A DNA stretch of 64,000 nt, taken from Octopus vulgaris (lineage: Eukaryota). The notes beneath the pieces are model-generated. The model did no database searches and was not told where the DNA came from. It worked only from the letters and a program-made list of their open reading frames with translations. Both the position numbers and the translations under genes were made by a program. Shown one piece after another: positions 16,672-54,369 of this stretch (within the stretch, counting starts at the first letter, position 1; the number at the start of each line of letters is the position of its first letter). The stretch is taken from assembly GCA_951406725.2 (NCBI GenBank), contig OX597838.1, forward strand, positions 43,834,001-43,898,000. Direction: 5' to 3'.

Positions 16672-18841
16672 TATTTCAAAACATTTGCCATAAAGGCAGT
16701 ACACAGATTAAGTTAGCTTTGCGGGCTGGACAAGGACATTAATGAAGTGAATGATAATGAAAGAAAGATGATAAGGATGGGAGAAGACAAAAAGCGCCCG
16801 CCGACTTTCGCTTCTCTAAAACATTGTTCTTTTTAAAGATAAACACAAAACGAGGTATTAAACCTCTTACAATTTTTCCAATTTTTGGACTTAGCAGTCC
16901 ATTATTACAAAACGAGGTATTAAACCTCTTACAATTTTTCAATTTTTGGACTTAGCAGTCCATTACTAATAATAACAGTTCAATAATTACATATCGTCCT
17001 CGAAATAGCTTGTGCCCGCGCCCTCCACCATCAACCACGCCTCCCTCAGAACGTAATCAAGTTCCGAGTTTGCGTTGCCCGGGACCAAGTTATAATCTTC
17101 ATTGAGCTCCTTTAGCCCAAGCGTCACGTCGAACGCCACGGCCTCCACAGCTACCTGCGGAGGCCATTCGGGGTCCTGTGTGAAGGCTAAAGGTGCTCCC
17201 TTGTGGTGCTCTTCCATCACCTTTTCAATTTCACCTCCTCTATAGAAGAGGACCAATACGTTCAGTTCTTTCGTTGGCGGCACAGTTCCCGCCAACGGTA
17301 TTCCTTCTCTTGTCGGTGGCACAACCCCAACCGACGTAGTTCCGGGACATTCCGGTTCTATGTCACTGACAGCCGGCAATGTCCCGTTTTTCTTCCTCTT
17401 TTTCTTTTTTTTTCCCATTTCAACTGAGGGAGGGTGCGTCTCCTCCGTGGCCGGAAGATTCGCCTTCCTCTCCTCATCCCTATTATCCTTTGGTGAGCAC
17501 CCATTGTTGCTCACCTTCCTCTTTCGGCCTCTGTTTGAGGAGTCCTCTGCTTTCTCGGCCGTTATCATTCCCTCTTCTAGAGGGGTTTTACTTAACTGTT
17601 CCGGGATCCTATTTTGTTCCCGGGGACAGTTCTTCTTTATGTGGCCGGACTCCAAGCACCGATGACACTTAGGGGGGCGACCCTCAAGCATCACCGGGTA
17701 CCTGCACCCAGCCATTTTCAAAAAATCTGGAAGAACCAGATTGGCTGATTGGGTCCACAAGGTCAAAATTGCTTTTGACCCAACCCAAGCAGCCGCAGGA
17801 AGAACTTTTACATTAAGGAGCTTAGTTTCGCTGCCACCCAGACCCCGGCGGATAGTCTCCTCTATCCACTCGGGTTCTATGTCGGGTGGCAGCCCGCAAA
17901 TCCAAGTTTTCATCAATTTCTTTTTTTTGTACGTGGGTAGGAATAAGATTTCCTTACCCTCCAGGGGTTTGCTAGCAAATTTGCAAGCCTCTTCAGGGGT
18001 GTCAAATAGCAACCACACCGTTGCATATTTGACACCCCTGGAAATGAATTTAATTGTTGGCAAATACTCTTCCAACTCCTTTTCAATTGCCGTCTTTTCG
18101 AATAGGGCGATGGTGTCGAGTGCCTTGGAGTAGGTTCTCAACACCACCGTCCTATCTTCACGGTCTTTTAACCACTTTTTAGGCGGTATGATCTCCCATT
18201 CCAAAAGTTTGTTATTTTTCATTGCCATGTTTTTTTGTTTTTTTTTAAATGTATTCAAAATAAAATTAAAAAAGGAGAAGAAAAGGAAATCAGAAGAAAG
18301 TCACGGTGAAAAAGGGAGAAAGTCAAATAAAGTTAAAAAGAAAGTCAATAACACAGCAAAAACCGTCTGGCCATTCGGTACTCCCGGCCTACATTGAACC
18401 CAGAACGCCGCAACTGGAACACAACTTCCGCAAAAATTGGTGTAAAATTGGTAAAAATTGTTCAAACTTCGGAGGCAAAACACTCTCCTATATAGCAGTT
18501 TTCACAATTCTTAAAGTTCGTCACAGCACAATACAATTCTCATAATTAGGCGAGAAAAATATTCACTCAATTTATCGAAGACGGATACGCCCCCCAAAAA
18601 TTTTCACAATTCAGCGAGAAAAATATATTTGCCACATGTCGGCAGAATCAGAATTCTGAATCCAGTAGGACTTCCTGCCTGTAAAAAACAATCCTCAACA
18701 AAAACTCCCACTGGAACCAGAAAACAGAATCTTACCTTACATGGGGCTTCCAAGATTTTCAATTCAAGACGGCTTCAAAAGCACGTCTTCACCGCTTCAG
18801 TGCCAAACACACCACTGACTCGCACATGCGCAGAAGCAACT
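16672..18841 (-). mobile_element. ORF1-only non-autonomous L1/Tx1-type element, copy 1 (2170 bp, 15 bp TSD)
   Basis: TSD gttagcaagctactt at 16657-16671 and 18842-18856. Structure: ~600 bp 5' UTR, single ORF, ~310 bp 3' UTR ending in AATAAA. No RT or endonuclease. Confidence 0.85.
16987..18222 (-). CDS. Tx1/L1-type ORF1p (gag-like nucleic-acid-binding protein with one CCHC zinc knuckle), ~411 aa, intact
   Basis: CHRCLESGHIKKNC (CX2CX4HX4C) preceded by EGRPPK, an RRM-like N-terminus and a Lys-rich NLS-like tract. The start ATG chosen is the one conserved in copies 2 and 3 (MKxxxxLEWEIIPPK). Confidence 0.85.
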   Translation of the reverse strand: MKNNKLLEWEIIPPKKWLKDREDRTVVLRTYSKALDTIALFEKTAIEKELEEYLPTIKFISRGVKYATVWLLFDTPEEACKFASKPLEGKEILFLPTYKKKKLMKTWICGLPPDIEPEWIEETIRRGLGGSETKLLNVKVLPAAAWVGSKAILTLWTQSANLVLPDFLKMAGCRYPVMLEGRPPKCHRCLESGHIKKNCPREQNRIPEQLSKTPLEEGMITAEKAEDSSNRGRKRKVSNNGCSPKDNRDEERKANLPATEETHPPSVEMGKKKKKRKKNGTLPAVSDIEPECPGTTSVGVVPPTREGIPLAGTVPPTKELNVLVLFYRGGEIEKVMEEHHKGAPLAFTQDPEWPPQVAVEAVAFDVTLGLKELNEDYNLVPGNANSELDYVLREAWLMVEGAGTSYFEDDM

Positions 18842-19178
18842 GTTAGCAAGCTACTTACCACACAGCCACTCCTGCGCCTATATATCTAATAAAAATGAAT
18901 AAATAAATAAATAACAACAAAAAAAATATATATAAATTAATAATTTTTAATTTTTAACTTTAAATTTAGAATTTTATATTTTATATTTTTTGTATATTAT
19001 ATTAATTTTATTTCTATGTTTTGGTTCATGATTTTCACTGTTTGATTTGCCTAATAGTGGTTTTATCTCTAATTTATATATATATTTATACTGTAAAATT
19101 AGATTTAATCCTAAATCTAATTTTTCCCTGTAAGTTTGGATTTACTCCATAATATTACTATTATATATATATATGGAT

Positions 19179-19221
<43 letters not shown>

Positions 19222-19537
19222 TCTTTTACTCTTTTACTTGTTTCAGTCATTTGACTGCGGCCATGGTGGAGCACCGCCTTTAATCGAGCAACTCGACCCC
19301 GGGACTTATTCTTTTGTAAGCCCAGCACTTATTCTATCTGTCTCTTTTGCCGAACCGCTAAGTAACGGGGACATAAACACACCAGCATCGGTTGTCAAGC
19401 AATGCCAGGGGCACAAACACAGACACACAAACACACACACGCATACATATACATACATATATATGGATATTATATGTATATATGTCTATTGATCTCACGC
19501 ACACATACACACGCACCCACATGTAACTATATATTCA

Positions 19538-19597
<60 letters not shown>

Positions 19598-19828
19598 TCG
19601 AACACTTTGAAATATACTTCAAACTATATATCAACTATACATGAACTCTAAGATGTCTGACTCCGTTGTGTATTATAAATGAATTTCTTGTGTTTGACGG
19701 CATGAGCTGTCTCTTTTTATATATAACTTTTTTTGATAAGGTTCATTTCAGGAACTGAAACATGTTATAATGTATATATAAAAATTAAAAATTGTATAAT
19801 ACAGCAGCATTTTCGAACTTCATTTTTT

Positions 19829-19894
<66 letters not shown>

Positions 19895-20076
19895 AATTAC
19901 GATAAAGACAAGTTTATATTATTTGTTTCCACATACTTTTCGCCATTCAAACTGTTTGGAAATCTGCAATGGATGGTCCAAATGCAGATAGATGTTTACT
20001 CAGAACGGATCTTCGGGGAACATCTTATGGCATTATAACATTGTCATTGGTTTTCTGTAGCATAATGAAATGACGT

Positions 20077-20173
20077 GGTCTCTGATGACCCGTCGTGGTT
20101 AAGCATGCAATCGCACTTGAAACATCGAATGCAGATTTGCAAACAACCACGACGGTGAAACGTGCGCAGGGTC
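20077..20173 (+). ncRNA. Degenerate type I HHR with long stem II
   Basis: CTGATGA-c ccgtcgtggtt...aaccacgacgg t-GAAA-cgtgcg-CA. The 11 bp helix is perfect but the cleavage triplet is mutated to GCA. Confidence 0.55.
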
Positions 20174-20357
20174 AAATGATATAAACTTAAATTTTTGTCA
20201 TTTCTTTCACCTTTGCTCTGTATATCATAACTGGTAATAACTACAAAGTATAATAGTTATTCAACCACTACACAGAAGCAGAGTAGAAGGCGATAATATA
20301 GGGGGAGCTCTAAACGTAAATGTAGCAGCCATGTATTTGTATATACAAACTGCACTT

Positions 20358-20477
20358 TCCGCAGACGGAAAGTTCAAAATCTTTCCCTTTTACAAATGTA
20401 CACAGGACGAACCACAATACCGAAAGGCAATGGAACTACACTTCATAAAAAGATTCTCTCCGAAATTAAATGTTTAA
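20358..20477 (+). pseudogene. Penelope-like element GIY-YIG endonuclease C-terminal remnant
   Basis: Translates SADGKFKIFPFYKCTQDEPQYRKAMELHFIKRFSPKLNV*, matching the PLE F.IFPFY...R...E..FI....P.LN terminus. Confidence 0.65.
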
Positions 20478-20944
20478 TAGAGAAAAAAAAGAAAAGCAAA
20501 GAGTTTGTTTTGTATGTATATATATATATGTATATATGTATGGGTATGATATACATAATTATTTTATTTTGCTAATGTATTTTCATACAGAACTACACCT
20601 TACCAAAAATAAATAAATAAATGTAGGACATGAATATATTCTAAATATAACTCAAAGAATATAAAAAGAAACTACGAACACAGAAAGGACAGGAAAACAT
20701 TTTTTTACTAATTCTTATTCTTTATTTTTTCTTTTTCTTTTCTTTCTTTTCTTATCATCCCTAAAAACCATTTCAAAACAATGGTGCAAGAATTAAACAA
20801 GTTTTTACTTTACTTTATTTATTTATTTGTTTATTTGACAATCCTTAAAAAGACAATTTCAATACAATGAAAAGTGGTGGAAAAGAAAATGAATAGACCT
20901 TCTCTCCCTCTTTTACCCAACCCATCTTTCTCTCTGTCTGTCTA

Positions 20945-21042
<98 letters not shown>

Positions 21043-22406
21043 GAACTAGGCATGCCGTGGTTGATGATGCGCAGACACGCGCTGAGACTGCGACATCTCA
21101 TGCTCTTCGTAGACGACGGTGAACAGGTGTGGTCGCCGTTTGTGGGGCACGCTTTCCCGCAGCTCGTCTCTATGACCGAACTGCAGTCGTGGATCAAAAA
21201 GAGGCCGAGGAAGGGCGAATGGCACCGCGAGTGTCGCGTTGCTCTCATGCAACTCTGCTGTCCTGGGTCGACCTTGAGTGACTCCATCACAACCAAAGCA
21301 TTCTATAGGGGATTAGTGGAGGGGAGGTACGACGACGAGCTCGGGGCGAACCTGGACGTCGACGAGGAATACCTGACCCGCCTGTTCGGGACGACTTTCG
21401 GGCCATGGCCCATGGATAACCTCCAGAGATCCTTGGCCTGGCAGTGCTACCGAGAAGCGTTACCCGTTCGGGATAAGCTCTACAGACACGGCTCGAGAAA
21501 CACGGGGCCGACCTGCCCAAGATGCGGTCAGAGCGACGAAACCGTTCTGCACGCACTAGTGCAGTGTCCAACAATTTCCGACCTGTGGGCTTATGTCGAA
21601 CAACTGCTGTCACGTGTGGGACGAGTCGGTTTATGAGCTGAGTCTATCGTTAATATTGTCACGCCTCCTTCCTTCAAACGGGAAGGAAGAGCTATTTTCA
21701 TCATCCTTGTGGCTATGGCGAAAGAATGTGTCTGGTGGACACGTCTGAAAGGATTGGAGACAAACACTTTCCTCTCTGGTCAATCTCTCATCAACTTCTT
21801 CAAGTACCACTTGAAAAGGAAAGTGAGAGTAGAGAGGCAAGTTTTGTCTAGCGAATGTTTTAAAAAAAGATGGTTGAATGTAGCAAGAATGGCACGTATG
21901 AATGACGAGGCCACCTTGAGCATAATCCTATGAACCCAGAAATTGAAAACAGAGGGTTACCCACTTGCAAACAAATGTGGTAACATATAACAATATTGAC
22001 CAAGGTTACCGTGGTCTTTTTCGTAGGCTTTTCTTCCCACGGATAAACCTTACTTGCTTTCCCCTTTACACCATATATCATGACACTGTGATACACGATC
22101 CCTATTGATCGTTTTTTTCCCTCTTCCCCATTTTTCCTCTTTTTTCTTCTTTTTTCCTTTTACTTTTCTTTTGTTTCTTTTCCTTTTTCCTCTTTTTTCT
22201 TCTTTTTTCCTATTTCTTTTCTTTTGTTTCTTTTCCTTTTCTTTTCCTTTTTTCTCCCTTTTACGATCCCTTTTGATCGAAAACCTACGCCACATTTTTT
22301 TTATTCTTTTGTTTTTTGTTTTTTGTTTTTTCATCCCCCAAAAGAAAAACTCTACCTTGTAATTTGTCCCATCTGTGTGCAGCCCTGTGTGGCCAATAAA
22401 GAAACT
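21043..22406 (+). mobile_element. 5'-truncated Tx1-clade LINE (ORF2 C-terminus plus 3' UTR) inside a (TATC)n tract
   Basis: Highly similar to ORF2 from 53018 onward, including the CPRC..ETVLHALVQC zinc motif. Premature TGA at 21634. AATAAA at 22395. (TATC)n lies on both sides (20947-21042 and 22407-22566). Confidence 0.9.
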
Positions 22407-22413
22407 TATCTAC

Positions 22414-22566
<153 letters not shown>

Positions 22567-22857
22567 CATCTTCCATTGTCTTCAAAGCTTCACCCCAACA
22601 ACAAAACAAAAACAATGTTCTCTTATAAACAAAATCGCCCCAAAACATCTGTTTTATATAAATAAGCAAGATATCTTTAAGTTCACAAATATATTTGATA
22701 ATTTCGAAAGACGAACGAAAGCGCTGATATGACAATGAAGATATAAAATAACAAAAAGTTCTTTCCAAAATTCTGACGACTTTTTCTCAATATTCAGTTC
22801 TGTACATCACACCTAACACTACACACACACACACACACACACACGTGCGCGCGCGCA

Positions 22858-22941
<84 letters not shown>

Positions 22942-23450
22942 CATAAGTTGAAGACGGGAAGGATGACTTCCCTTTGCAAATACTGACAGGACACAGAAAG
23001 TGTGTCTATGGCCAGCTGGAGGAGTGTGTCCTCCTGGGGCTAAAAACTACAGTAGCATCCACCCTTAGGGGTAGCCATATTGAGATGGCAAATATACGTC
23101 ACGATGTGTTACCGCTACTGTATATAACTCACTTTGATATTTATCATTGTTTGATTTCACTTTTTCAATATCAGCGACAGTGGACGCTGGAAAAAGTATA
23201 AGTATTTGTGAAGGAAATCTAATTCTCGCCGACAACTATGATTGTCACACGCTGACGAGAGGTCAATACCTCGAAACTCGAGTCCGTGTGTATCATAAGT
23301 TGAAGACGGGAAGGATGACTTCCCTTTGCAAATACTGACAGGACACAGAAAGTGTGTCTATGGCCAGCTGGAGGAGTGTGTCCTCCTGGGGCTAAAAACT
23401 ACTGTAGCATCCACCCTTAGGGGTAGCCATATTGAGATGGCAAATATACG

Positions 23451-23453
<3 letters not shown>
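22942..23453 (+). mobile_element. Partial-tandem HHR element (352 bp unit plus 160 bp repeat) within (TA)n
   Basis: 22942 recurs at 23294. Related fragments lie at 7690-7790 and 41340-41450. Confidence 0.85.
23246..23290 (+). ncRNA. Canonical minimal type I hammerhead ribozyme
   Basis: cacacg-CTGACGA-gagg tcaata cctc-GAAA-ctcgag-TC-cgtgtg: all core nucleotides intact, palindromic stem III, GUC triplet. Confidence 0.9.
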
Positions 23454-23522
<69 letters not shown>

Positions 23523-23669
23523 CACACACACATACATATCTATATATATATACGACAGGCTCCTTTTAGATTCCGCCTACCAGATGCATTAACAAGGATT
23601 TGGTTGTCTCGAGTCTATAGAGGAAGAGGGTGACTGAACTTGATCAATATCGTTGGGAAGCAAGCTTCT

Positions 23670-26015
23670 TTATTTCCTCAGATTTGCCATAAAGACATTA
23701 TAAAGATGGAAACAAGTGTGGCGGGCTGGACAATAACACAAATGAGATGAAACGATGAACGACATAATGATATTAATGTGAGAGGCAAATCGACGCCCGC
23801 CGGTCAACCCCCGCCCTCGGTAACAACGTACTTCTTTCTTTTTTTCTTTTTTTGAAACAAAAAAACAAACAGCAACACAAAGGAAATAATGAACCTCTAA
23901 CATTAACATCAATCGAGGCACTAAGCCTCTTATCAATCTATATTGTTCATGAGGTAACAAACCTCTACACTGTTCACAATATTCAATAAAAATTCAAAAA
24001 CAAAATGAGGCGCTAAGCTTCTTTCCTTTCTTTCCAAGCTCGGAACTTTCAATAACACTGAAGCTTTTCAACCTCTTATCATTATTCCTCCTCAACATCG
24101 CTTGTGCCCGCATACTCCGCCATCACCCACGCCTCATTCAAGATTAAAACGGGTGCCGTATCGGCGTCGCCCGCCCACAAGTGATATTCCTCATTGAGTC
24201 CCTGCAGCCTACACATCACGGGCAACGTTATGACCTTCATAGCTATTTGCGGACGCCATTCGGAATCCTGTGTGAAGGCTAAAGGTACTCCATTATGGTG
24301 CTTTTCAACCACATTTTCTACCTCTCCGCCTCTATAGAAGAAGACCAATAATTCGTCTTCTTCCGGGGGCAGGATATCCAATTCTACTGTTGGTGGCAAA
24401 GTTCCCGCCAACGGTGTCTCTTCTTCTGCCGGTGGCACAACCCATACCGACGTGGTTCCGGGACATTCCGGTACTATGTCACCGACTGCCAGAAATGTCC
24501 CGTTTCTCTTCTTCTTCCTCTTTTTTTCTTTTCAAATGAGGGGGGTGTGCGTCTCCTGCGTGACCGGAAGATTTGCCTCCCCTTCCTCATCCCTAGGATC
24601 CTTCGGTGAGCATCTATAACTGTTCCTTCTTTGAGGAGTCCTAAGCCACCTGGGCTGCCTTCATTCCCTCTTCTACAGAGGACTCAATCAACTGCTCAAA
24701 GAGCTTACTTTGTTCTGGGGACAGTTTTTATTTATATGGCCAGGCTCCAGGCACTGATGACACCTGGGGGGGGGGGGTGACCCTCAAGAATCACCGGGTA
24801 CCTGCACCCGGCCATTTTCAAAAAATCTGGAAAAGCCAGATTGGCTGATTGGGTCCAAAGCGTCAAAACAGCTTTTGACCCAACCAAATCAGCCGCAGGA
24901 AAAACTTTCATATTAAGGAGCTTGGCTCTGCTGCCACCCAGACCCCGGCGGATACTCTCTTCTATCCACTCGGGTTTTATTCCGGATAGCAACCCGCAGA
25001 CCAAACCGCTTGTCAACCTCTTCCCACAATACGTGGGAAGAAACAAAATTTTTGCCCTCTAAGGGCTGGGTCGCAAATTTGCGCGCTTCTTCAAGGGTGT
25101 CAAATAGCAACCACACCGTTGCGTATATTACTCCCTCCCTGGAAATGAATTTCATAGTTGGTAGATACTCTGCCAACTCCTTTTCAATTACAGTCTTTTC
25201 AAATAGGGCGATGGTATCCAGCGACTTAGAGTAAGTCCTCAACACCACCGTCCTCTTCACGGTCTTTCAACCACTGTTTGGGTGGTATAATTTCCCACTC
25301 CAAAGCATTGTCTTTTTTCATTGCAATGTTTTTATTTAACAGTTCGAAAATAGTTCAAAATAAAACTTAAGAAGAGAGAAGAAAAAGAAAGAAATCAAAA
25401 GAAGGTCACAATAAAATGGAAGGAAGAAAAGGAAAACAAATCACGAATAATGAAAGTCAAAAAAGGTTTAGAAGAAAGAAAGTCAATAGTTCAAAAACAC
25501 AGAAAAAAATTTCCCCTTCCACTAGGTACTCCCGGCCAAGGCCGAATCCGGAATCCCACAACTGGAACACAACTTCCACAAAAACTGGTATACATGTCGT
25601 TCAATCTACCGCGGCAAAGACACTCCCCCAAAACAGCAATTCTCACAATTATTTCAAAAATTCACAAAAAGTGAACAAATTTTTAGGACTCCCCCAAGTA
25701 ACAATTCTCACAATTGAGAAAAATATTCACTTAACATGAATCACTATTTTGGACCGGGATACGCCCCCAAACAATAATTCTCACAATTAAGTGAGAAAAA
25801 ATATTCACTCCTCTGCAGGCAGACTAGAGTTTAGAATCCTGTGAGGACATCTTTCTTGTCCAAAAAATAACAAACTTCCACTGGACCCCCCCAAAACAAG
25901 AGTCTTACCTTACAGCAGAGCTTCGAAATTCTTCAATTCAGGACGGCTTCAAAAGCACGTCTTGACAGCTTCAGTGCTTCAGTGCCAAATACTACACTGA
26001 CTCGCACATGCCCAG
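23670..26015 (-). mobile_element. ORF1-only element, copy 2 (frameshifted ORF1), in a degraded SINE A head
   Basis: TSD tgggaagcaagcttct (23654-23669) and tgggatgcaagcttct (26016-26031). ORF1 pieces at 24082-25320 are homologous to copy 1. Confidence 0.85.
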
Positions 26016-26228
26016 TGGGATGCAAGCTTCTACCACACAACCATACCTGTAAATATGCATGTAGATATATGTATATATAGGCACAGGAGTGGCTGTGTGG
26101 TAAGCACCTTGCTTACCACACAGCTTGCTTCGTGGCTCGTTGGGAGAGTGTCTCCTCCTATAGCCTCGGGCCGACCAAACCCTTGTGAGAGGATTTAGTA
26201 GACAGAAAATGAAAGAAGCTCGTCGTAC

Positions 26229-26329
<101 letters not shown>

Positions 26330-29502: not shown

Positions 29503-29904
29503 ATATGTATGTATGTATATATGTATGTATGTATGTGTGTATGTATGTATGTATGAAAGTATATACACATATACACAAGTATCTGTGTGCATGTGTGTTT
29601 TTGTGGTTTGTGCCCGTGTTTGTCTTTCGCAATAGCTAAAAACTGTTTTTAGTTTGTTTACGTGACTATAGCTAAGCTGTTCGGTAAAAGCGACCAATAG
29701 AAAGGCGGCGAGCTGGCAGAAGCGTTAGCACGCCGGACGAAATGCTTAGTGGTATTTCGTCTGTCTTTACGATCTGAGTTCAAATTCCGCCAAGGTCGAC
29801 TTTGCCTTTCATTCTTCCGGGGTTGTCGACAAATTAAGTGCGAGTTGTGTACTGGGGTCGATTTATTATTATTATTATTATTATTATTATCATTATTATC
29901 ATTT

Positions 29905-31223
29905 ATTTTCCTTCTTTCTTCAAAATTTCCCCCGTTTCTCGCCGAGTGTTTTCCGTACACCTAAGGCAGAGAAGCTCATTGTATGCATTCCCAGATTACA
30001 CACGAAAATTCACAGGTAAAATATGTATTTAAAAAAAATTAATTAATAAATAAATTCATGAATGGATGTTGTTTTCACAGCAATAATGCTCTTCTCAGTA
30101 CATGAGCCGTTCCAGTTAACACGATTTTTTGCACTTCCTGTAGGGATGGTAAGCCTGGTATCATTTTCAAATTGGTTTCAGTACCTTTTTTAATCATTCC
30201 TAGAGATCCTATAATCACTGGTCCTGTAGTCGCCTTGAGATGCCACATTTTTTCAATATCTATTAACAAGTCTTTATATTTACTGATCTTGTCAAATTCT
30301 TTCGCCGCTATATTGTGATCGCAAGGAATACTCATGTCAATTAATAAACACATCTTTTTTGTCCGATCTTTTATAATAATATCCGGTTTATTATCTTTTA
30401 TAGTTTTGTCGGTATGTGCGGGGAAGTCCCATAGAATCGACACATTATCTTCCTCAGTCACAACTTCAGGATGGTGTTTATACCATTTGTCAGCGGATTT
30501 GATTTTATAATGCCGACATATTGTCCAGTGTAAATACTGGCCGACTCTGTCATGTCTTGTTTTATATTCTACAGGTTCTAAGACTCTACACCCTGAGATT
30601 AGGTGGTGTATAGTTTCAATCTCATCGTTACAGAATCGGCATTTTGGGTCAGCTCCATTTTTTATCACATTGGCTTGGTAGTTCCGGGTTAATAAGCTTT
30701 GGTCTTGAGCAGCTAATATGAAACCTTCACTCTCTGCTTTTAGCCCTGAGCTTCGTAAACATTGGTGCGTGTGTTTCTGGTCGACATCAGCTTGTTTGCA
30801 ATTAATTTAACTTTCTTGGCAGCTGCAGTTGGTGCATTTCCTTCAACCTGCTCAATCTGGTGGTATCTAAAAGATCAATAGCGAATGTTTTGCTCACTTT
30901 CAGAATAGAGTGAAGTTTTTTCAGTCTTTTATGTTTTTCAACAAGTTTTAGCATTCAATCGTTGGTTGCTTCCAGGTATTTGGCCAGTCCGATTGTGGTG
31001 GTTTTGTATGTAAATTCAAGCTGGATCAAGCCTCGACCTCCCTGAGCTCTGGGAAGGTAAAGACGATCCACGTCTACCTTTGAATGGTGCATCTTATTAC
31101 AAGTTAGTAGCTTGCGGATTTTTCTGTCAATTTTCATTATTTCACTGGTATTCCAGTTAAGCACATTGAAATTATAAAGAACAACTGGGACTGCTAAGGA
31201 ATTTATGGCTAACACCTTATTAT
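29905..31223 (-). mobile_element. 5'-truncated R4/Dong-clade LINE (thumb, CCHC, RLE)
   Basis: CRFC...ETIHHLISGC, RHD, ILWDF, KPDIII, IDMSIP, KISKY and PVIIGSLG motifs. The 3' end runs into (TAA)n at 29864-29905. Confidence 0.85.
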
Positions 31224-32583
31224 TCTATGTTTGACTTTTGCTTTACATTTGCACAAGTTGGTTCCAAGTCTCTCCCAGAGACCTCAAGAGACAACAAGTT
31301 GGAAGTTCATGTTGGTGTTATGCCTAGGGTGCCATATATTTGGTTCTGTACATAGTTTTGTACTAGTAAATGTCTAAAAAACCATATGAAAATTATGTGT
31401 TTGTTTTAAAGCTTGAGATTACATAGAAAGTATTTTGCGTAGGATATGAGCAGTTCCCATGAGCACTATCTTTTGAATTTCTGCCATTTTGGAGTTTCCT
31501 GACATCTGAGTTAGGCAGCAATCAGCCCCTTTTGCTATCATTCCCAGGGCACCTATGACAACTGGTATTGTTTTAGTCTTCAGGTTCCACATTTTGCTGA
31601 TTTCTATTTCAAGATCATTATATTTGCTCAGTTTTTGGTAGGTCTTGACAGATACGTTTATATCGATTGGGACAGTCATATCAATGAGGAGGCATGTTTT
31701 TTGTCTGAAGTCTTTTACTATGATGTTTGGCCTATTCACGTCTATCTTTCTGTCAGTTTGAATGGTGAAGTTCCAGAGGTGTGAGATGTGATCATTTTCA
31801 AGCACTAGAGTTGGTTTGTGTTCCCACCAGTTTTTATCATGGGACAAGTCCAGTGAATATATAGTGCAGCTCTATCATGCCTGTTGAGATACTCTGTAGG
31901 TGCAAGAAGACTGCACTCGGAGACAACAAAATGGTTTCATTTTGTTGTTGACATACTCGACATGTTGGGCTACTGCCGTTCTTCTATATGTTGGCCTGGT
32001 AGTTCCTTGTAGGTAGGCATTGATCTTGAGCTGCTATGATAAACCCTTCTGTTTCAGATTTTAAGCCAGAGGCCATTAGCCATTAATGGGTCAGGGCTTT
32101 GTCAACATCTGCAGTATTCGCTCTCTTTGGGTATTTGCCATTGAGAGGTTTTTCTTGCTATTTATCATTCAGAATATCTAAGGCAGCAGTTTTAGCACGG
32201 GTTTTCATGCGCTTAGCTTTTTCTGTGTTTGTTTCTTGTATGTCTAATTCCGAAATTTGTTGTATTCGGAATTCACTTAGATATTCCATTGCCTGTTTTG
32301 TTACTGAGTATGATGCTTTCTTGTTTTCATGTTTTGAGACAAGTTTTAACATCCAGTCCGCAGAGTTTCTCAGGTAGGTGTCTAGGCCAATTGTAGCAAC
32401 CTTCATTGTTATTGCCAGTTGTAAAAGCCCACGGCCTCCCTCTTTTCTTGGTATATAAAGTCGATCAGTATCTGCCTTAGGGTGGTGCATTCTATGCATT
32501 GTCAGCAGTTTTCGTATTTTTCTGTCAAGATTACATATTTCAGTAATTGGCCAGTTAACGATATTGAAACTGTAAGTCACGAC
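31222..32583 (-). mobile_element. Second, divergent 5'-truncated R4/Dong-clade LINE, head-to-tail with the first
   Basis: DRLYIPRKEGGRGL, IDMTVP, KLSKY and PVVIGALG motifs. (TAA)n lies at its 5' flank (32585-32619) and the tail reads aataataa. Confidence 0.85.
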
Positions 32584-32619
<36 letters not shown>

Positions 32620-32942
32620 GGTTTCCTGACTGGCACCAACTGAATAGATTTTCAGATCGATCCGGTACCAGACAAGGATTATGGATTAGTGTGCCTGTTT
32701 TTTGTACTTAATTTTTGAGAGCGGTTGGATTCATTTTTAGCATTCTCATTTATGAGAGCAAGAGTTTATTTCAGATATTCTCATTTTAAAAATCATCTCA
32801 GGCTAATCGTGGACAGGACTTTAATGTTGCCTTGGCGGAGGTTTGCGCTCTCTGAGTGCTCTTGTTACTATTATTATTATTATTGTTGTTGTTGTTATCA
32901 TAGGCGCAGGAGTGGCTGTGTGGTGAGAAGCTTGCTTCCCAA

Positions 32943-34293
32943 CTGCGCATGTGTGAGTCCGTGTTGTGTTTGGAACTGAAGCTGTAAAGACGTGCTTTTG
33001 AAGCCGTCTTCAATTGAAGAATTTTGAAGCGCAGCTGTAAGACTTGTTTTTTGGGTCCAGTGAGGGTTTGTTGTTTGCGGTAATTATTTTTGTACAAGCA
33101 AGACATCGTCACTGGATTGTAAACTCTAGTCTGTCTGCAGAGGAGTGAACATTTTTTTCTCACTTAATTGTGAGAATTATTGCTTGGGGACGTATCCCGC
33201 TTCCAAATTAGTGGTTCACGTTAAGTGAATATTTTTTCTTAATTGTGAGAATTGTTACTTGGGGGAGTCCTAGAAATTTGTTCACTTTTTGTGAATTTTT
33301 GAAATAATTGTGAGAATTGCTGTTTTGGGGAAGTGTCTTTGCCTCCGAAGAATGAACGACTTGTATACCAGTTTTTGTGGAAGTTGTGTTCCAGTTGTGG
33401 CATTCCGGGTTCGGCCTTGGCCGGGAGTACCTAGTGGAAGAGGAAATTTTTTTTCTGTGTTTTTGAACTATTGACTTTCATTATTCGTGATTTGTTTTCC
33501 TTTTCTTCCTTCCATTTTATTGTGACCTTCTTTTGATTTCTTTCTTTTTCTTCTCTCTTCTTAAGTTTTATTTTGAACTATTTTCGAACTGTTAAATAAA
33601 AACATTGCAATGAAAAAAGACAATGCTTTGGAGTGGGAAATTATACCACCCAAACAGTGGTTGAAAGACCGTGAAGAGGACGGTGGTGTTGAGGACTTAC
33701 TCTAAGTCGCTGGATACCATCGCCCTATTTGAAAAGACTGTAATTGAAAAGGAGTTGGCAGAGTATCTACCAACTATGAAATTCATTTCCAGGGAGGGAG
33801 TAATATACGCAACGGTGTGGTTGCTATTTGACACCCTTGAAGAAGCGCGCAAATTTGCGACCCAGCCCTTAGAGGGCAAAAATTTTGTTTCTTCCCACGT
33901 GGGAAGAGGTTGACAAGCGGTTTGGTCTGCGGGTTGTTATCCGGAATAAAACCCGAGTGGATAGAAGAGAGTATCCGCCGGGGTCTGGGTGGCAGCAGAG
34001 CCAAGCTCCTTAATATGAAAGTTTTTCCTGCGGCTGATTTGGTTGGGTCAAAAGCTGTTTTGACGCTTTGGACCCAATCAGTTAATCTGGCTTTTCCAGA
34101 TTTTTTGAAAATGGCCGGGTGCAGGTACCCGGTGATTTTTGAGGAGCCTGGCCATATAAAGAAAAACTGTCCCCAGGACCTTATGAAGGCGGCCGAAGAG
34201 GCGGAGGACTCCTCAAAGAAGGGCCGCAAAAGGATGAAGGTGAGCAGCAATGGGTGCTCACCGAAGGATCCTAGGGATGAGGAAGGGGAGGCT
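32943..34293 (+). mobile_element. ORF1-only family, copy 3 (3' part lost), directly after a SINE A head
   Basis: SINE A head ggcgcaggagtggctgtgtggtgagaagcttgcttcccaa (32903-32942) is joined to ctgcgcatgtgtgagtc... The copy is near-identical to copy 2 over ~33180-34140. Confidence 0.85.
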
Positions 34294-35489
34294 TTTCTGA
34301 TGCTATTGTAATAACACACAAGCACACAATACCTCAACGCAGACAATACACAAACACGCAACATGTATAAACATACGCAACACGCATAGACGAAGATAAC
34401 TTTCGCCCACATGCACTACATACATGCACACTATTTAGTCACAGACACACATACACAGATGCACGCACCACCTGAACAAGCACGCATTATCTCCTACACA
34501 CGTCCATACGTACACACACACACAAACACACAAACTCGCCCCCATTCACTCATGCACATAGCCTCTATGGCGGGAAGCCTAGAGTAACCATATAAACCGG
34601 TCTCGATCACTAATAAATATAGACTGCTCTACTTCTTAGAGTGTACTTCTCCGGATGTATGTTTTTCTAAAAAAAAAAAAAACGATTACACACACACACA
34701 CATTCATAAACCCCGCCCCACACCATATATATACGGGCTATTTCAGTTTTGGTATGAGAAATCCTCTCACATGACGTTTCGAAAAAATTGAATGTAAGCA
34801 AATTTCTGCGTAGGCGTGGGTGTGTGATTAAGAGGTTTCCTTCCTTACCGCATGGTCAGTCCCACAGAATAGCACCTTGGGCAAATATGCTTACTGAAGC
34901 CTCAACCCTAGTTATACTGTGGCAGAGAAAATTGAAGATAACTTTTGGATAAGCTTTAGTCGCAGATTTAGCATGCTAAAAGTGGAACTAAAAAACTACA
35001 TTCTTTTGAGAACTAACAAAGTCATTTATATATCATCTGTAGTTAAGACGCTCGCCTCGCAACTCCATGGCTTAGAGACCAATGGCTTTGTAGGAGAGTC
35101 ACGCAGCTTGTAAGTGAAATCTGACATGAAAGAAATTGTGTGCGGTGGGGCGTCGAGGGGAACAATTTTGTTGACTTAATATTTGCTCAGTTTAACTCAA
35201 CCTCTTGGTTTTTGGATTATTTTAGTGGAGTTCACGCTGAGATCTGAACAAAACCCCCTCCCCTCCCCCCATAATTCGTGGAGGCCCTAGAAACATTTCC
35301 TTTGCTGCATTTCCTTCATTTGCAAAATCATTAAATTTATACGAAAAAGGGTCCTGCTCGAATTTGGGTCTTTCCAATTCTTTTTAGTAAAATAGTTTAT
35401 CCTTCATTGCATACTTTTCTTAATTACTAACTGCAGACGCGCGCAATCACCATAGTCTCTTCCAGAATATTCTGTTTGCGTGTAAAATA

Positions 35490-44358: not shown

Positions 44359-44425
<67 letters not shown>

Positions 44426-44564
44426 GACGGGCTTCTTTCAGTTTCCATCTACCAGATCTACTCACAAAACTGGTCGACCCGAGGCTATAATTGAAGACAC
44501 TTGCCCAAGGTGCCATGCAGTGGGACTGTACCCGGAACCATGTGGTTGGAAAGCAAGCTTCTTA

Positions 44565-44795
44565 TTTCTTTATTGCCCACATGGGGATAAACATAGAGAG
44601 GACAAACAAGGACAGACAAACGGATTAAGTCGATTACATCGACCCCAGTGCGTAAATGGTACTTAATTTATCGACCCCGAAAGGATGAAAGGCAAAATCA
44701 ACCTCGGCGGAATTTGAACACAGAACGTAACGACAGAAGAAATACCGCTAAGCATTTCGCCCGGCGTGCTAACGTTTCTGCCAGCTCGCCGCCTT
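44565..44795 (-). mobile_element. SINE B with Tx1-like 3' tail inserted in a SINE A head (10 bp TSD)
   Basis: TSD aagcttctta at 44555-44564 and 44796-44805. The host SINE A spans 44420-44828. Confidence 0.85.
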
Positions 44796-44956
44796 AAGCT
44801 TCTTAACACACAGCCACTCCTGCGCCTATACAACCACAAATACATACATACATACATACATACATACATACATACATACATACATACATACATACATACA
44901 CATACATGCATGCATATATATATATATGCTTGTGTGAGTGTGTGTATGTGTGTGTC

Positions 44957-44995
<39 letters not shown>

Positions 44996-45183: not shown

Positions 45184-45236
<53 letters not shown>

Positions 45237-45644: not shown

Positions 45645-45701
<57 letters not shown>

Positions 45702-45710
45702 TACATACAT

Positions 45711-45766
<56 letters not shown>

Positions 45767-45979
45767 TTGGGATTTGGTTTGCAAGATTCTTTATGTGAGT
45801 TCGTGTGTTGAAGCATATTCTGTTGTGGTCTGGGGCGAATCATTTTCATTTTGTGCTTTATAATTTAACACACTCACCGGTAAAATTTCCACTTATTCCT
45901 TATTTTTATTTTCTTAAAATTCTCGTTGCGTCTTGCAACCTTTTCAATTCTCTCTTATATATATATATATATATATGTA

Positions 45980-46829: not shown

Positions 46830-46832
<3 letters not shown>
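45980..46832 (+). mobile_element. Tc1/mariner-superfamily (DD37D/maT-like) transposon relic
   Basis: TA-cagggt...aacctg-TA ends. Degraded catalytic region YVW*QDSAPCHTSRRTQ.WLS...W.PN..DC. Confidence 0.7.
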
Positions 46833-46879
<47 letters not shown>

Positions 46880-46884
<5 letters not shown>

Positions 46885-47128
46885 TATATAGAGGGTACTA
46901 TTATTCATAGGTACCGCACGCTAGGAGGGACTTTTACAGTCAAAACTACTAAAATAAACAAATTGTACCGAATGCAAAACTTCAAAGCGAGTCATTTAAA
47001 AACAGTTTTTAAATGACTCGCTTTGAAGTTTTGCATTCGGTACAATTTGTTTATTTTAGTAGTTTTGACTGTAAAAGTCCCTCCTAGCATGCGGTACCTA
47101 TGAACAATAGTACCCTCTATATAATATA
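46880..47128. repeat. Near-perfect palindrome (124 bp arms, 1 nt spacer) within (TA)n
   Basis: Centre at 47004. Two mismatches between the arms by eye. Confidence 0.95.
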
Positions 47129-47129
47129 A

Positions 47130-47225
<96 letters not shown>

Positions 47226-47371
47226 GCATACACATAAACGTGAGCGCCTAAGTGCAAAACAAACTCAGTGACTGAGGTAGAGTAATATACTTTTTATTAA
47301 AGCTGCAAAATTATCACAGTACTGTGATAATATTTTAGCTTTGACAAAAAATATATATGTATATATACGTA

Positions 47372-47840
47372 TTTATATAAGCCTAAAGCTTATAGTGATC
47401 ACCGAGCAAGGACTAAGAAAAATAGTCTAATAATGGGGCATATAAGCCCTCGACTGAAAAAGAAGTAGGCTCTCCAATCCGCGTGAGACTTGAACCTACG
47501 TCTCTTTGTTAATGCTCCAAAGTGTGTTATCATTACGCCAGCGAATTAGACTCCCCGCTTCTGTCAAATTTAAGAACTATATTGGTTCGTAGTTGTCTTT
47601 GCAGACAAACTTTCTCTGTCCTTCGGCGCGACTGGTTTTGTTATACGCTGCCATGATTTACAATCCTGTACATAATAATAATGTTGTTTATATGGTAACA
47701 AACTTATTCGCGTTAACAAAGCGATGTAAGTTCGAGTCTCACGCGGATAGCAAAGCCTACCTTTTTCTGTCGAGGGCTTATATGCCCCATTATTAGACTA
47801 ATTTTCTTAGTAATTGCTGTAAGCTTTAGGCTTATATAAA
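47372..47840. repeat. Diverged inverted repeat containing tRNA-like boxes
   Basis: ~47372-47515 versus ~47708-47840. B-box-like gttcgagtctcacgcgg (plus strand) and tggcgtaatgat...ggttcaagtctcacgcgg (minus strand). Confidence 0.6.
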
Positions 47841-47908
47841 TACCATTAGGATTATTTATACCATTAGGATTATTTAAAACCTGGCGCCATATAACAAAAC
47901 CATTCGCA

Positions 47909-47946
<38 letters not shown>

Positions 47947-47950
<4 letters not shown>

Positions 47951-48608
47951 AAAATTAGAGAATGGAGAAACATACTTAAATCAGTAAAACATCAACTATC
48001 CGATGATACTCAATCCATACTTTAATACACCATTACATATGAGTAAAGGCAATATATAAAATGAAATGAGATATACAGTAATAGTAAAAAGATAAAGAGA
48101 TATAAGTAAAAAATTTCAAATATAATATGCAAATAAATCAAAACTGACAGCTGTTTCGGCAGTGAGGACAGTCATACCTCATTTAACCTATAAGCCATAA
48201 AGGCAGGTATAAATGAGGCATTAACAAGGATGCCCCACGGCCTCTTCAGAGAATTAAATTAAATTTGTTATAATAGTGAAAAATATTATATAATCATATA
48301 CATATAAATATAAAAATATAAAAATGTAAAATATAAAAACTTATACATCATAATGCTACACTTATATAATATAATACACATTTGTACAAAAAAGGAAGGT
48401 AAACAGAACAAAATAAAACAAAATATATAACAGTGTATATATTAATATTAATAAGTACCGATATTATACATATTTGGCTAATAGTTTTTTTTAAAAAAAA
48501 GGCTAACACATATGGAGATGAAAAATAATAATTAAATCCGTGGTACAGTTCATAAAGTTCTAAAGCTATAAAAGTTAATAAAAATTACTATTAATAATAA
48601 TAATAATA

Positions 48609-48652
<44 letters not shown>

Positions 48653-49328
48653 TAATAAAAATAGATACAGTTAAGTTAGCACCAAGTCCATCCTTTCAAG
48701 ATCGAAATAACTTCCTTTTGTACAAATGTGTATTATATTATATAAGTGTAGCATTATGATGTATAAGTTTTTATATTTTACATTTTTATATTTTTATATT
48801 TATATGTATATGATTATATAATATTTTTCACTATTATAACAAATTTAATTTAATTCTCTGAAGAGGCCGTGGGGCATCCTTGTTAATGCCTCATTTATAC
48901 CTGCCTTTATGGCTTATAGGTTAAATGAGGTATGACTGTCCTCACTGCCGAAACAGCTGTCAGTTTTGATTTATTTGCATATTATATTTGAAATTTTTTA
49001 CTTATATCTCTTTATCTTTTTACTATTACTGTATATCTCATTTCATTTTATATATTGCCTTTACTCATATGTAATGGTGTATTAAAGTATGGATTGAGTA
49101 TCATCGGATAGTTGATGTTTTACTGATTTAAGTATGTTTCTCCATTCTCTAATTTTGTAGTATTAATTTACGGTAATATTATTACCTTTACCCATATAAT
49201 ACAATAGATGAACTGATTGTTTGACAATTTTTAACATCTATGTATTAATTTTGTTGGGTACCTATCTAGCAGTATATTGGATATATATTATCCCATGGTG
49301 GGTTGAATTTTCAACCCCTTATCTCATT

Positions 49329-49330
<2 letters not shown>
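47947..49330. mobile_element. PLE-type element with ~450 bp inverted arms (47947-48398 and 48711-49159), each with a long-stem-II HHR
   Basis: Arms are near-identical. CTGAAGA (48858)-ggccgtgggg...ctcactgcc-GAAA-cagctg-TC (48961). Flanked by (TA)n. Confidence 0.8.
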
Positions 49331-49364
<34 letters not shown>

Positions 49365-50414
49365 GAAATGGAGCAATAATTAACAATGAGAAGTTGATTA
49401 TTGGTATTAAAAAGTTTTCCTTTTCTCCTCTTTATAATCATTCTGAACTACAATTAACCTCTGACTTTTTAATACCAATGATCAACTTCTCGTTGTTAAT
49501 TATTGCGCCATTTCTTTTCTTTTCTTTTCTATATATATTAAACCACGGTTTTACCTTTAAATTACCAACTACTCTATACATTATAGATTGGACTATACAT
49601 AGTGAGGTAATACACCAGTAGTGTCTAAGGATACATTTATCCCTTAGATGGTTGAATAACCTCTAACTCATATTTTGCTTACATATATACATACATACAC
49701 ATATACATATATATATATACATATATATATATATATGTATAGGTATATATATATATATATGTATATATATGTATATATATGTATGTGTGTATACATGTGT
49801 ATATATATATACTTGTGTATATATGTGGACTAGTCTTCTGTGTGTGTGCAGATGTATGTATGTGTATGCGTGTAGATATGAATTTGTAGGTACGTGTACG
49901 TATGCGTATATATGTGCATGTATGTATATGTTTGAGTGTAGGTAGATATATGTAGGTATGCTTTTATGTACACGTGTATGCGTGCATGTGTGCTAATATG
50001 TACTTAAAGGCGTATGGATGTGTATATATGCGTATGTATGTTTATATGCACAAATGTCTGTATATAGGCATATGAGTCTATATATGTGGGCAGATGTTCT
50101 TGTGTGTTTATGTGTACTGAAGTACATTTATATATGTGGTTTTGTGTGTACATAGCTATGTGTACGTTTATGTGAAATTCGGTACACTTATGTATGTATG
50201 AATATAACACGTGCGTCTGTGTATGTGTATGAGTGTGCGTGTGAGTGTGTGTGCGTGTGTAAGTGCTTGTGTTCGTATCAGTGGGTAGAAAGATAGAAAA
50301 GAAGGTAGAGGGGGCAATAAATGGTTTTTTTAAGCTCCCTCGGGAGAAACCTACCTCTGTGTCGGCTTCGTTGGTCGAGGTCAAATAAAAACAATATATA
50401 TATGTGTATGTATA

Positions 50415-50493
<79 letters not shown>

Positions 50494-50504
50494 AGTGTGT
50501 ATGA

Positions 50505-50552
<48 letters not shown>

Positions 50553-50892
50553 ATATGTGAGCGTGTGTGTATGGGGTGTATATCCTCTTTTATATTTATT
50601 TATTTTACACATATATATGTGTGTAGATATTTGTGTGTATGTATGAGTATGGGTATGGGTCAGTATGTAGATGTATGTAAATGGGTGCATATGTACATGT
50701 GTATATGGATGTATGTGGGTATGTGTATGTAAACTCTATTATTCTATTTATTCATTTATCTACTTTATCACTGATTCCTTTGACCACTCCCCTAAGAATG
50801 ATAGTTTGCGCCATGCCTACCCCAAAAAGTCCCACACCACCACCCCTTAAACCTGCCTAAGTGTATAAATGCCAAAACTATTCTTGTCACCT

Positions 50893-50943
50893 AGCTTCCT
50901 GATGATTTCTTTTGAATGAAACAGTTCTAGTCCTGTAGAAGCT
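50893..50943 (+). ncRNA. Type I hammerhead ribozyme
   Basis: agcttc-CTGATGA-tttc tttt gaat-GAAA-cag ttctagtc ctg-TA-gaagct: 6 bp stem I, 4 bp stem III, weak stem II. Confidence 0.7.
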
Positions 50944-50954
50944 CCTTCTATAAA

Positions 50955-51130
<176 letters not shown>

Positions 51131-51309
51131 TACATACGGCGGTGAGCTGGCAGAACCGTTAGCACGCCGGGCGAAATGCGTAGTCGTATTTCGTCTGCCG
51201 TTACGTTCTGAGTTCAAATTCATCTTTTCGGGGTCGATAAATTAAGTACCAACACTGGGGTCGATTTAATCTATGTTTAGCCCCTTGTGGGAAATGAAGC
51301 ATATATAGG

Positions 51310-51341
<32 letters not shown>

Positions 51342-51520
51342 CTCTTTTACTTGTTTCAGTCATTTGACTGCGGTCATGCTGGAGCACCGCCTTTAGTCGA
51401 GCAACTCGACCCCGGGACTTATTCTCTTTGTAAGCCCAGTACTTATTCCATCGCTCTCTTTTTGCCGAACGTAAGCACACCAGCGGGGACGTAAACACAC
51501 CAGCATCGGTTATCAAGCAA

Positions 51521-54369
<2,849 letters not shown>

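What the first reader, a model, noticed from the sequence alone, without database searches (positions are those of the whole stretch)
16672..54201. Three element types share a 3' recognition motif: LINE, half-element and SINE
Seen: the ORF1-only ends (atctgtgtactgcctttatggcaaatgttttgaaata and ccatctttataatgtctttatggcaaatctgaggaaata) resemble the ORF2 LINE end (ccatctgtgtgcagccctgtgtggccaataaagaaa) and the SINE B tail. None has a poly(A). Inference: Tx1-family RTs recognise these 3' ends stringently. A speculative alternative is a split LINE with ORF1 and ORF2 on separate elements. Both ORF2 copies are 5'-truncated, so the window cannot decide this.
Basis: inference. Interest (0 to 1): 0.75.

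Follow-up and report, generated by a model that had tools for sequence, protein, structure and literature searches.

The report
SINE-homing ORF1-only octopus retrotransposon
In octopus-type DNA, a retrotransposon that kept only its RNA-binding protein, and a short parasite RNA element, jump into exactly the same spot inside another common repeat and end in a tiny RNA hairpin shared with full LINEs, which suggests they borrow the enzyme of a site-specific LINE.

Summary
The quoted ends are real and lack poly(A). The LINE and SINE B tails are clearly related, but only 2 of 12 SINE B copies carry that tail. The link to the ORF1-only ends is weak in sequence: a 27-nt profile finds it, a covariance model does not. 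What all share is a 3-4 bp hairpin near the 3' end, mostly just before AATAAA. Its stem flips between lineages, including distant full-length relatives.

All three ORF1-only copies and one SINE B copy sit at the same site in the tRNA-like head of SINE A (4 of 18 heads), with 10-16 bp duplications in the three complete cases. Both ORF2 copies end in (TATC)n instead. ORF1 (two RRMs plus CCHC) is under purifying selection and has no ORF2 remnant. In 36 of 36 fetched loci, relatives of the ORF2 carry their own homologous ORF1, so the split-LINE idea is unsupported.

Best reading: a HAL1-like half element of the L1/Tx1 group, mobilised in trans by a SINE-targeting Tx1-type LINE not seen here. It is a new variant of known kinds. 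Repbase could not be checked.

The parts
16672..18841 (-). Half element A: about 610-nt 5' UTR, intact ORF1, 315-nt 3' UTR, no ORF2
16987..18228 (-). ORF1, 413 aa: two RRM-like domains, CCHC knuckle (187-202), low-confidence C-terminal half
16657..16671 (-). 15-bp target-site duplication of half A, 3' copy (5' copy 18842-18856, identical)
18842..18881 (-). 5' piece of the host SINE A head (A-box-like part); the rest of the SINE resumes at 16671 and runs to about 16255
16686..16698 (-). Terminal hairpin of half A (4 bp, 5-nt loop)
23671..26015 (-). Half element B, frameshifted ORF1, in a SINE A head; 16-bp duplication with one mismatch (23654-23669 and 26016-26031); terminal hairpin 23685-23697
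32943..34292 (+). Half element C, 3'-truncated, 5' end joined to a SINE A head (32900-32942) at the same site
21044..22404 (+). ORF2 LINE copy 1, 5'-truncated, (TATC)n on both sides (20948-21039, 22415-22566); terminal hairpin 22382-22393
51519..54199 (+). ORF2 LINE copy 2, 5'-truncated upstream of the RT (no endonuclease part), RT and zinc finger open; followed by (TATC)n; 5' end abuts an inverted SINE A body; terminal hairpin 54176-54187
44565..44795 (-). SINE B copy with the LINE-like tail, inserted at the same SINE A head site; 10-bp duplication (44555-44564 and 44796-44805); hairpin 44576-44586
51137..51300 (+). Second SINE B copy with the LINE-like tail (internally deleted), between (TA)n tracts
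4920..5130 (+). Example of the commoner SINE B tail (type 2), which resembles the 3' ends of the distant full-length relatives; other copies at about 3359, 4694, 42026 (+) and 4645, 10363 (-)

Best explanation
The ORF1-only elements are a HAL1-like non-autonomous lineage of the L1/Tx1 group. It arose once by loss of ORF2 from a two-ORF LINE and has kept a working ORF1. Shown: anatomy, selection on ORF1, no ORF2 remnant, duplications, one shared target site. Inferred: the half element is transcribed from its own 5' UTR and coats its RNA with its own ORF1p. It borrows ORF2p from an autonomous Tx1-type family, not present in this window, whose endonuclease nicks the bottom strand at a CTT/AC step just 3' of the A-box-like motif of SINE A. 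That RT is inferred to select templates by a small 3' stem-loop (3-4 bp stem, 5-6 nt pyrimidine-rich loop ending in U-purine-U) in front of AAUAAA and to prime without poly(A), possibly by pairing a terminal AAG of the RNA with the CTT primer end. The same machinery moved a SINE B subfamily with a LINE-derived tail. The ORF2 family in the window is a sister family with a related tail and a (TATC)n target.
For: Same site, same orientation, in 3 of 3 halves and 1 SINE B; 4 of 18 SINE A heads found at E <= 1e-3 are interrupted, all there. Duplication lengths differ (15, 16, 10 bp) and flanks differ, as expected of separate events. Post hoc chance about 2e-12, or 3e-9 if only TA steps count (computed with 17 heads; about 2e-8 if B and C are one event). 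A and B are co-linear through ORF1, 3' UTR and tail. ORF1 dN/dS is 0.24 over codons 1-205 (p 2e-10) and 0.40 overall. No ORF2 remnant: best tblastn E 0.97 with 120 ORF2 relatives. Relatives of the ORF2 (42-44%) carry a homologous ORF1 upstream in 36 of 36 loci (phmmer E 4e-15 to 5e-8 for 7 of 7 tested). Their ends also lack poly(A), carry the hairpin and are followed by short family-specific junction sequences. Over 18 tails the hairpin is 90.3% paired with 13 double-sided changes, 0 of 500 shuffles as high, and RNAalifold predicts it unprompted. Precedents: HAL1, HeT-A, Ag-Sponge (PMC5786205, passages); SINEU and Tx1-Mar share a target in a transposon (PMC4494074, parts 1-4 of 5).
Against: The partner LINE is not seen. 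The SINE B at the SINE A site has a tail closest to the window's (TATC)n-associated LINE, so that family itself may be the partner. The covariance model from LINE and SINE tails misses the halves and gives no significant hit in 5 relative loci (best E 3.5). The hairpin is thermodynamically marginal: 5 of 6 terminal 60-mers fold no better than shuffles. On the 6 window tails alone, 20 of 500 shuffles reach the score. In the LINE copies the MAFFT register gives a C-C mismatch unless the loop is 6 nt. The 18 rows were cut around hairpins I had picked, and fall into only 5 related groups, so the shuffle control overstates the support. A G/C 3-bp hairpin with any loop occurs in 16-41% of random 45-mers, and with this loop in 1.6-2.6%. 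The 36 loci come from one record and overlap.
Confidence: 0.6

Rival explanations
1. The window's own ORF2 family is the partner and has several preferred targets (the SINE A site, (TATC)n, (TA)n), all cut at TA steps.
For: The SINE B inserted at the SINE A site has a tail 78.6% identical to LINE 1 over 42 nt. Tx1-Mar families use two unrelated hot spots (PMC4494074).
Against: 0 of 2 LINE copies end at the SINE A site and 0 of 3 halves lie in (TATC)n. Relatives with near-identical 3' UTRs are followed by different junction sequences by family, so a shared tail does not imply a shared target.
Confidence: 0.2
2. The half-element tail resemblance is only inherited ancestry plus a polyadenylation signal; the RT does not read it stringently.
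For: Pairwise similarity is not significant for half B; the covariance model is negative; the hairpin is small.
Against: A and B differ by dS about 0.5 and their 3' UTRs are 54-73% identical, yet both keep the stem, one with a G-U change. The stem flips with pairing kept across groups. No poly(A) is present to serve relaxed recognition.
Confidence: 0.15
3. Split LINE: an ORF2-only element and an ORF1-only element depend on each other.
For: No full-length octopus copy is in the window or could be fetched; ORF1 of the halves is under selection.
Against: 36 of 36 loci of relatives have their own homologous ORF1, and 9 of 9 tail-to-tail units measured are 6.4-6.6 kb. Halves and ORF2 copies have different targets. 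ORF1-only derivatives of complete LINEs are known (PMC5786205).
Confidence: 0.04
4. The half elements did not insert separately; one SINE A plus half composite was copied as DNA.
For: B and C are 99.4% identical over 651 aligned columns and share frameshifts.
Against: A and B are 72.6% identical; duplication end points and outer flanks differ; an unrelated element (SINE B) uses the same site. The B-C identity is a central tract with 81-96% in the 5' part, which looks like gene conversion or an assembly effect.
Confidence: 0.03

Closest known systems
HAL1 (half-L1), HeT-A, Ag-Sponge: ORF1-present non-autonomous LINEs (PMC5786205 and PMC5753468, passages)
   Same: Encodes ORF1 only, between LINE-type 5' and 3' regions; moved in trans.
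   Different: Those derive from the L1, Jockey and CR1 clades. This one has an RRM-RRM-CCHC ORF1 of a Tx1-like lineage, no poly(A), and one sequence-specific target.
Crocodilian SINEU with Tx1-Mar (PMC4494074, parts 1-4 of 5)
   Same: Non-autonomous elements share a fixed site inside another transposable element, taken as evidence of a common target-specific Tx1 partner.
   Different: Target there is a Mariner DNA transposon; SINEU has poly(A) and no LINE-like tail; no ORF1-only member was described. Here the target is a SINE head.
Microsatellite-targeting Tx1 families Kibi, Koshi and crocodilian (TTCC)n/(TTTC)n families (as described in PMC4494074)
   Same: The ORF2 copies end in a microsatellite, and copy 1 has it on both sides.
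   Different: The repeat is (TATC)n; phylogenetic relation to those families was not testable.
Stringent LINE/SINE tail pairs with a 3' stem-loop, including the L1-clade maize/sorghum and Chlamydomonas pairs (PMC3747384, passages)
   Same: SINE tail copied from a LINE 3' end; hairpin with conserved loop and variable, compensating stem.
   Different: Animal L1/Tx1-group lineage; very short stem; extends to an ORF1-only element.
Octopus tRNA-CORE and tRNA-Deu SINEs, L1-Tx1 LINEs (PMC8967140, passages; PMC13282606, parts 1-2 of 3)
   Same: These are named as the main octopus SINE types, and 13 recently active L1-Tx1 families are counted in O. vulgaris.
   Different: In what I read neither paper describes tails, targets or ORF1-only families. 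Their libraries and supplements were not seen.

Membership tests
ORF1-present non-autonomous LINE (HAL1-like) | Encodes ORF1 only, no ORF2 remnant | tested here: met
ORF1-present non-autonomous LINE (HAL1-like) | Retrotransposed as a unit, with target-site duplications | tested here: met
   15 bp and 16 bp duplications for A and B; C lacks its 3' end
ORF1-present non-autonomous LINE (HAL1-like) | ORF1 and ends derived from an identified autonomous parent | tested here: inconclusive
   ORF1 homologous to ORF1 of full-length relatives at 20-30% identity; direct parent not found; tail similarity weak
HAL1 proper (mammalian L1 derivative) | Derived from mammalian-type L1, poly(A) tail (recalled feature) | tested here: not met
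   No poly(A); ORF1 is two RRMs plus CCHC
Tx1 clade | Two ORFs; ORF2 with APE endonuclease, RT and C-terminal zinc finger, in the L1 group | tested here: met
   Shown for relatives; relative P0008 matches L1 ORF2 at E 9e-69 against R2 at 5e-16. The window copies lack the endonuclease part through truncation.
Tx1 clade | RT groups with named Tx1 references in a tree | not testable with these tools
   No named Tx1 protein among the 120 hits listed; the quick tree has no reference, it only joins the window LINE to an Argonauta protein and three others (100) and then to the fetched relatives (97)
Tx1 clade | Target-sequence preference (common in the clade, PMC4494074) | tested here: met
Stringent LINE/SINE tail pair | SINE 3' tail homologous to the LINE 3' end | tested here: met
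   For 2 of 12 SINE B copies
Stringent LINE/SINE tail pair | Conserved 3' stem-loop with compensatory changes | tested here: inconclusive
   Positive on 18 hand-picked tails, weak on 6, covariance model negative for the halves
Stringent LINE/SINE tail pair | RT requires the 3' sequence for retrotransposition | not testable with these tools
   Needs a retrotransposition assay
tRNA-CORE SINE (SINE A) | tRNA-derived head | tested here: inconclusive
   A- and B-box-like motifs by eye (recalled consensus); ARAGORN 0 genes; no Rfam tRNA match
tRNA-CORE SINE (SINE A) | CORE-domain motif CCTTGGG after the head (PMC5786205) | tested here: met
   Present in SINE A copies by inspection; the whole domain was not aligned to references
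tRNA-Deu/Nin SINE (SINE B) | Deu/Nin central domain | not tested
   Label is recalled; no reference sequence on hand

The most novel reading that the evidence does not exclude
Octopus carries a Tx1-type system that homes to one phosphodiester in the tRNA-like head of an abundant SINE, splitting its promoter boxes. It has spawned an old ORF1-only lineage under selection and a tail-swapped SINE subfamily. All are recognised by a minimal 3' hairpin whose loop is kept and whose stem covaries between octopus and a distant eukaryote, the first such signal for the Tx1 group in the papers I could search. The bolder form, in which the partner LINE has lost its own ORF1 and depends on the half element, is not excluded but I put it near 0.04.
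Probability: 0.4. Interest if true: 0.7.

Novelty: new variant of a known kind. Interest (0 to 1): 0.52.

Why it matters
If true it adds the Tx1 group to the clades that produce ORF1-only elements, and a SINE head to the targets of site-specific LINEs. It gives a small, testable RNA signal for how an L1-group RT picks its template without poly(A), which bears on the proposal that stringent 3' recognition is ancestral in the L1 clade (PMC3747384). A natural site-specific endonuclease-RT with an abundant harmless target is also of interest for targeted integration. Each piece has a precedent in another clade, so this is a specialist result and not a new class of element.

Tried and rejected
Covariance model from the 2 LINE and 2 SINE tails: half ends not found; no significant hit in 5 of the 36 loci searched. 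Covariance model from 9 relatives' tails: top hit is a type 2 SINE B tail at E 0.026, others E 0.6-5, and no LINE or half terminal hairpin is found. Folding the last 60 nt: only the SINE B 44565 tail beats shuffles (z -2.2), 5 of 6 do not. No similarity between half and LINE 3' UTRs beyond the last 27 nt and low-complexity runs. Search for ORF1 fused to ORF2 in longer proteins: none, but only 1508-4305 aa was covered, so it is weak; 0 of 23 ORF1 relatives scanned had an RT or endonuclease domain. Scan of genome contigs with ORF1: nothing. Rfam on the window: microsatellite-driven miRNA noise; nothing for SINE heads or 8 loci. No tRNA in 10 loci. The profile hit at 58705 is an internal SINE A segment and is taken as chance. 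The SINE A piece at 34802 is a separate complete head, not the lost 3' half of C's host. I considered a dead-ORF1 subfamily from the frameshifts shared by B and C and left it open, because they lie in a near-identical tract. The R4-like elements at 29.9-32.6 kb have unrelated ends and are not the source of either SINE B tail by inspection. Names and sources of the unnamed ORF1 relatives stayed unknown, Bao and Jurka 2010 was not read, and metagenome and viral contigs stayed unchecked.

Full report
Setting. The window is repeat-rich animal DNA. The intact ORF1 has two hits in the protein search, both Octopus sinensis gene models, and the ORF2 is 65% identical to an Argonauta hians protein, so it is octopus-type. 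It holds three ORF1-only copies (A 16672-18841 minus, B 23671-26015 minus, C from 32943 plus and 3'-truncated), two 5'-truncated ORF2 copies (21044-22404, 51519-54199) and two SINE families, called A and B here.

The observation. The quoted ends are present and none has poly(A). The LINE ends and the SINE B tail at 44565 are clearly related. That tail is on only 2 of 12 SINE B copies examined; 6 have another tail and 4 are truncated or unclear. The half-element link is weaker. Half A against LINE 1 is reached by 7 of 3000 random 60-mers, and half B is not significant. A 27-nt profile trained without the halves puts half A first among non-training sites of 127,942 and half B at rank 30. A covariance model on the same four tails misses them. 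Similarity does not extend further into the 3' UTRs.

All three halves and the SINE B at 44565 interrupt a SINE A head at the same position and in the same orientation, just 3' of the A-box-like motif. The SINE resumes after the insert in the three complete cases, with duplications of 15 bp (A), 16 bp with one mismatch (B) and 10 bp (SINE B). Of 18 SINE A heads that cover the site at E <= 1e-3, 4 are interrupted, all there; one more carries about 28 extra bases at that point. Chance for three further hits on one site is about 2e-12, or 3e-9 counting only TA steps (post hoc, computed with 17 heads). Both ORF2 copies are instead followed by (TATC)n, and copy 1 has it on both sides; such arrays are 0.9% of the window. 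The second SINE B with the LINE-like tail lies in (TA)n. The target can fold as a DNA hairpin in 3 of 4 intact heads tested.

The half element. ORF1 of A is open for 413 aa. The model has two confident domains that match tandem-RRM proteins, a CCHC knuckle and a low-confidence C-terminal half; the Atlas neighbours of the O. sinensis homologue are eukaryotic CCHC, RRM and ZCCHC3-like clusters. A and B are co-linear through ORF1, 3' UTR and tail, and 120 ORF2 relatives find no remnant in any half (best E 0.97). One loss of ORF2 before A and B diverged is the simplest account. dN/dS between A and B is 0.24 over codons 1-205 (p 2e-10) and 0.40 overall; over the last 83 codons it is 0.63 and not significant. 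So ORF1 was probably maintained in the half lineage itself. B and C share frameshifts, but inside a 99.4% identical central tract, so conversion or assembly may explain them.

The split model. A scan with an ORF2 alignment returned 36 loci from one MAG record, CAXXMW01, that evidently contains eukaryotic DNA. They are tandem arrays of two-ORF LINEs with ORF2 42-44% identical to the window's. In 36 of 36 loci an ORF homologous to the half-element ORF1 lies upstream of an ORF2, 7 of 7 tested have the CCHC knuckle, and 9 of 9 tail-to-tail units are 6.4-6.6 kb. The loci overlap and represent a handful of families. A quick tree joins them to the window LINE's group with support 97, without named references. 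The lineage therefore normally has its own ORF1 of this family. No full-length octopus copy could be examined.

The shared 3' signal. The relatives also end without poly(A), in AATAAA followed by a short family-specific sequence; in L022 and L024 it also precedes 5'-truncated copies, so I read it as a target duplication. Their one consensus structure is a 5-bp hairpin with a 5-nt loop. A profile of their ends, built without window sequence, ranks three type 2 SINE B tails first in the window (E 7e-4, 0.016, 0.31; reversed-window best 1.7), and a covariance model agrees weakly. Aligning 18 tails (7 of 9 relative types, 5 of 6 type 2 SINE tails with the degenerate 4645 copy left out, both type 1 tails, both LINEs, both halves) puts the hairpins in register. 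The stem reads GGC/GCC in relatives and type 2 SINEs, GCC/GGC in LINEs and half A (one G-U change in half B), CCC/GGG in type 1 SINEs. Pairing is 90.3% with 13 double-sided changes, 0 of 500 shuffles as high, slid controls 32-56%, and RNAalifold predicts the same helix. The caveats are real: I cut the rows around hairpins already chosen, there are five related groups, the LINE copies need a 6-nt loop, and the six window tails alone give 20 of 500. A hairpin with this loop occurs in 1.6-2.6% of random 45-mers.

Mechanism. Shown: ORF1-only anatomy, selection, duplications, a shared site, a LINE-derived SINE tail. Inferred from established target-primed reverse transcription: the endonuclease of ORF2p sets the target, so elements at one site share a partner. 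I infer an unseen Tx1-type family that nicks SINE A, picks RNAs by the hairpin before AAUAAA and primes without poly(A). The window's LINE is most likely a sister with a (TATC)n target, although the SINE B copy that combines its tail with the SINE A site leaves open that it is the partner.

Comparison with print. ORF1-only LINE derivatives are known from L1, Jockey and CR1 (PMC5786205 and PMC5753468, passages). Shared targeting of a SINE and Tx1 families inside a Mariner element, and microsatellite-targeting Tx1 families, are described in PMC4494074 (parts 1-4 of 5). Stringent tails with covarying stems are known for plant and algal L1-clade LINEs (PMC3747384, passages). Octopus surveys name tRNA-CORE and tRNA-Deu SINEs and L1-Tx1 families without such detail (PMC8967140 passages; PMC13282606 parts 1-2 of 3). 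PMC4758252 and PMC4824008 were seen as passages. Ten searches showed no listing on an ORF1-only Tx1 element or a SINE-head target. The library lacks most subscription papers; Repbase, Dfam and all supplements were not seen, so an existing entry is possible.

Verdict. Observation partly confirmed, interpretation partly supported, split model unsupported. New variant of a known kind; interest 0.52.

Noticed in passing
window 11262-11374 (-): A SINE A copy has about 28 extra bases exactly at the shared target site, perhaps a repair footprint of a nick.
   Followed up: no
window 16852, 16914, 23915, 23951 (-): A 5-bp hairpin with a 5-nt loop occurs 4 times in the window, all in half-element 3' UTRs, with a C-G to U-A swap; in A it lies in a 62-bp tandem duplication.
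   Followed up: partly
window 24.7-25.5 kb (-) and 33.5-34.1 kb (+): Halves B and C are 99.4% identical over a central 651 columns but 81-96% in the 5' part: likely gene conversion between inverted copies, or an assembly effect.
   Followed up: partly
window 15927-16157 and 18879-19090: AT-rich inverted arms (82%) enclose SINE A and half A, a three-level nesting in a MITE-like element.
   Followed up: no
window 51340-51520: LINE copy 2 starts directly on an inverted SINE A body, with no (TATC)n or duplication on its 5' side; deletion or template switch unresolved.
   Followed up: no
window 29900-32600 (-): Two adjacent decayed elements with a restriction-like endonuclease motif (R4/Dong-like, label recalled) lie between (TAA)n tracts.
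   Followed up: no
L001-L036 (CAXXMW01 contigs): Contigs of a bacterial MAG record are tandem arrays of eukaryotic two-ORF LINEs, several families with near-identical 3' UTRs and different junction sequences: likely contamination of the record.
   Followed up: partly
window 12795-14198: 493-bp unit repeated 2.8 times at 99% identity between (AT)n tracts.
   Followed up: no
window 47951-48401 and 48708-49156: 450-bp inverted arms at 99% identity, a young MITE-like element.
   Followed up: no
window 23246-23290 (+): Hammerhead type I match just under the gathering score (32.2 against 34 bits), between two copies of a 164-bp direct repeat at 22942 and 23294.
   Followed up: no
window 1-589, 15076-15703, 62583-63042: A third repeat family with internal inversions, carrying a short stretch that weakly resembles the SINE A target site.
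   Followed up: no
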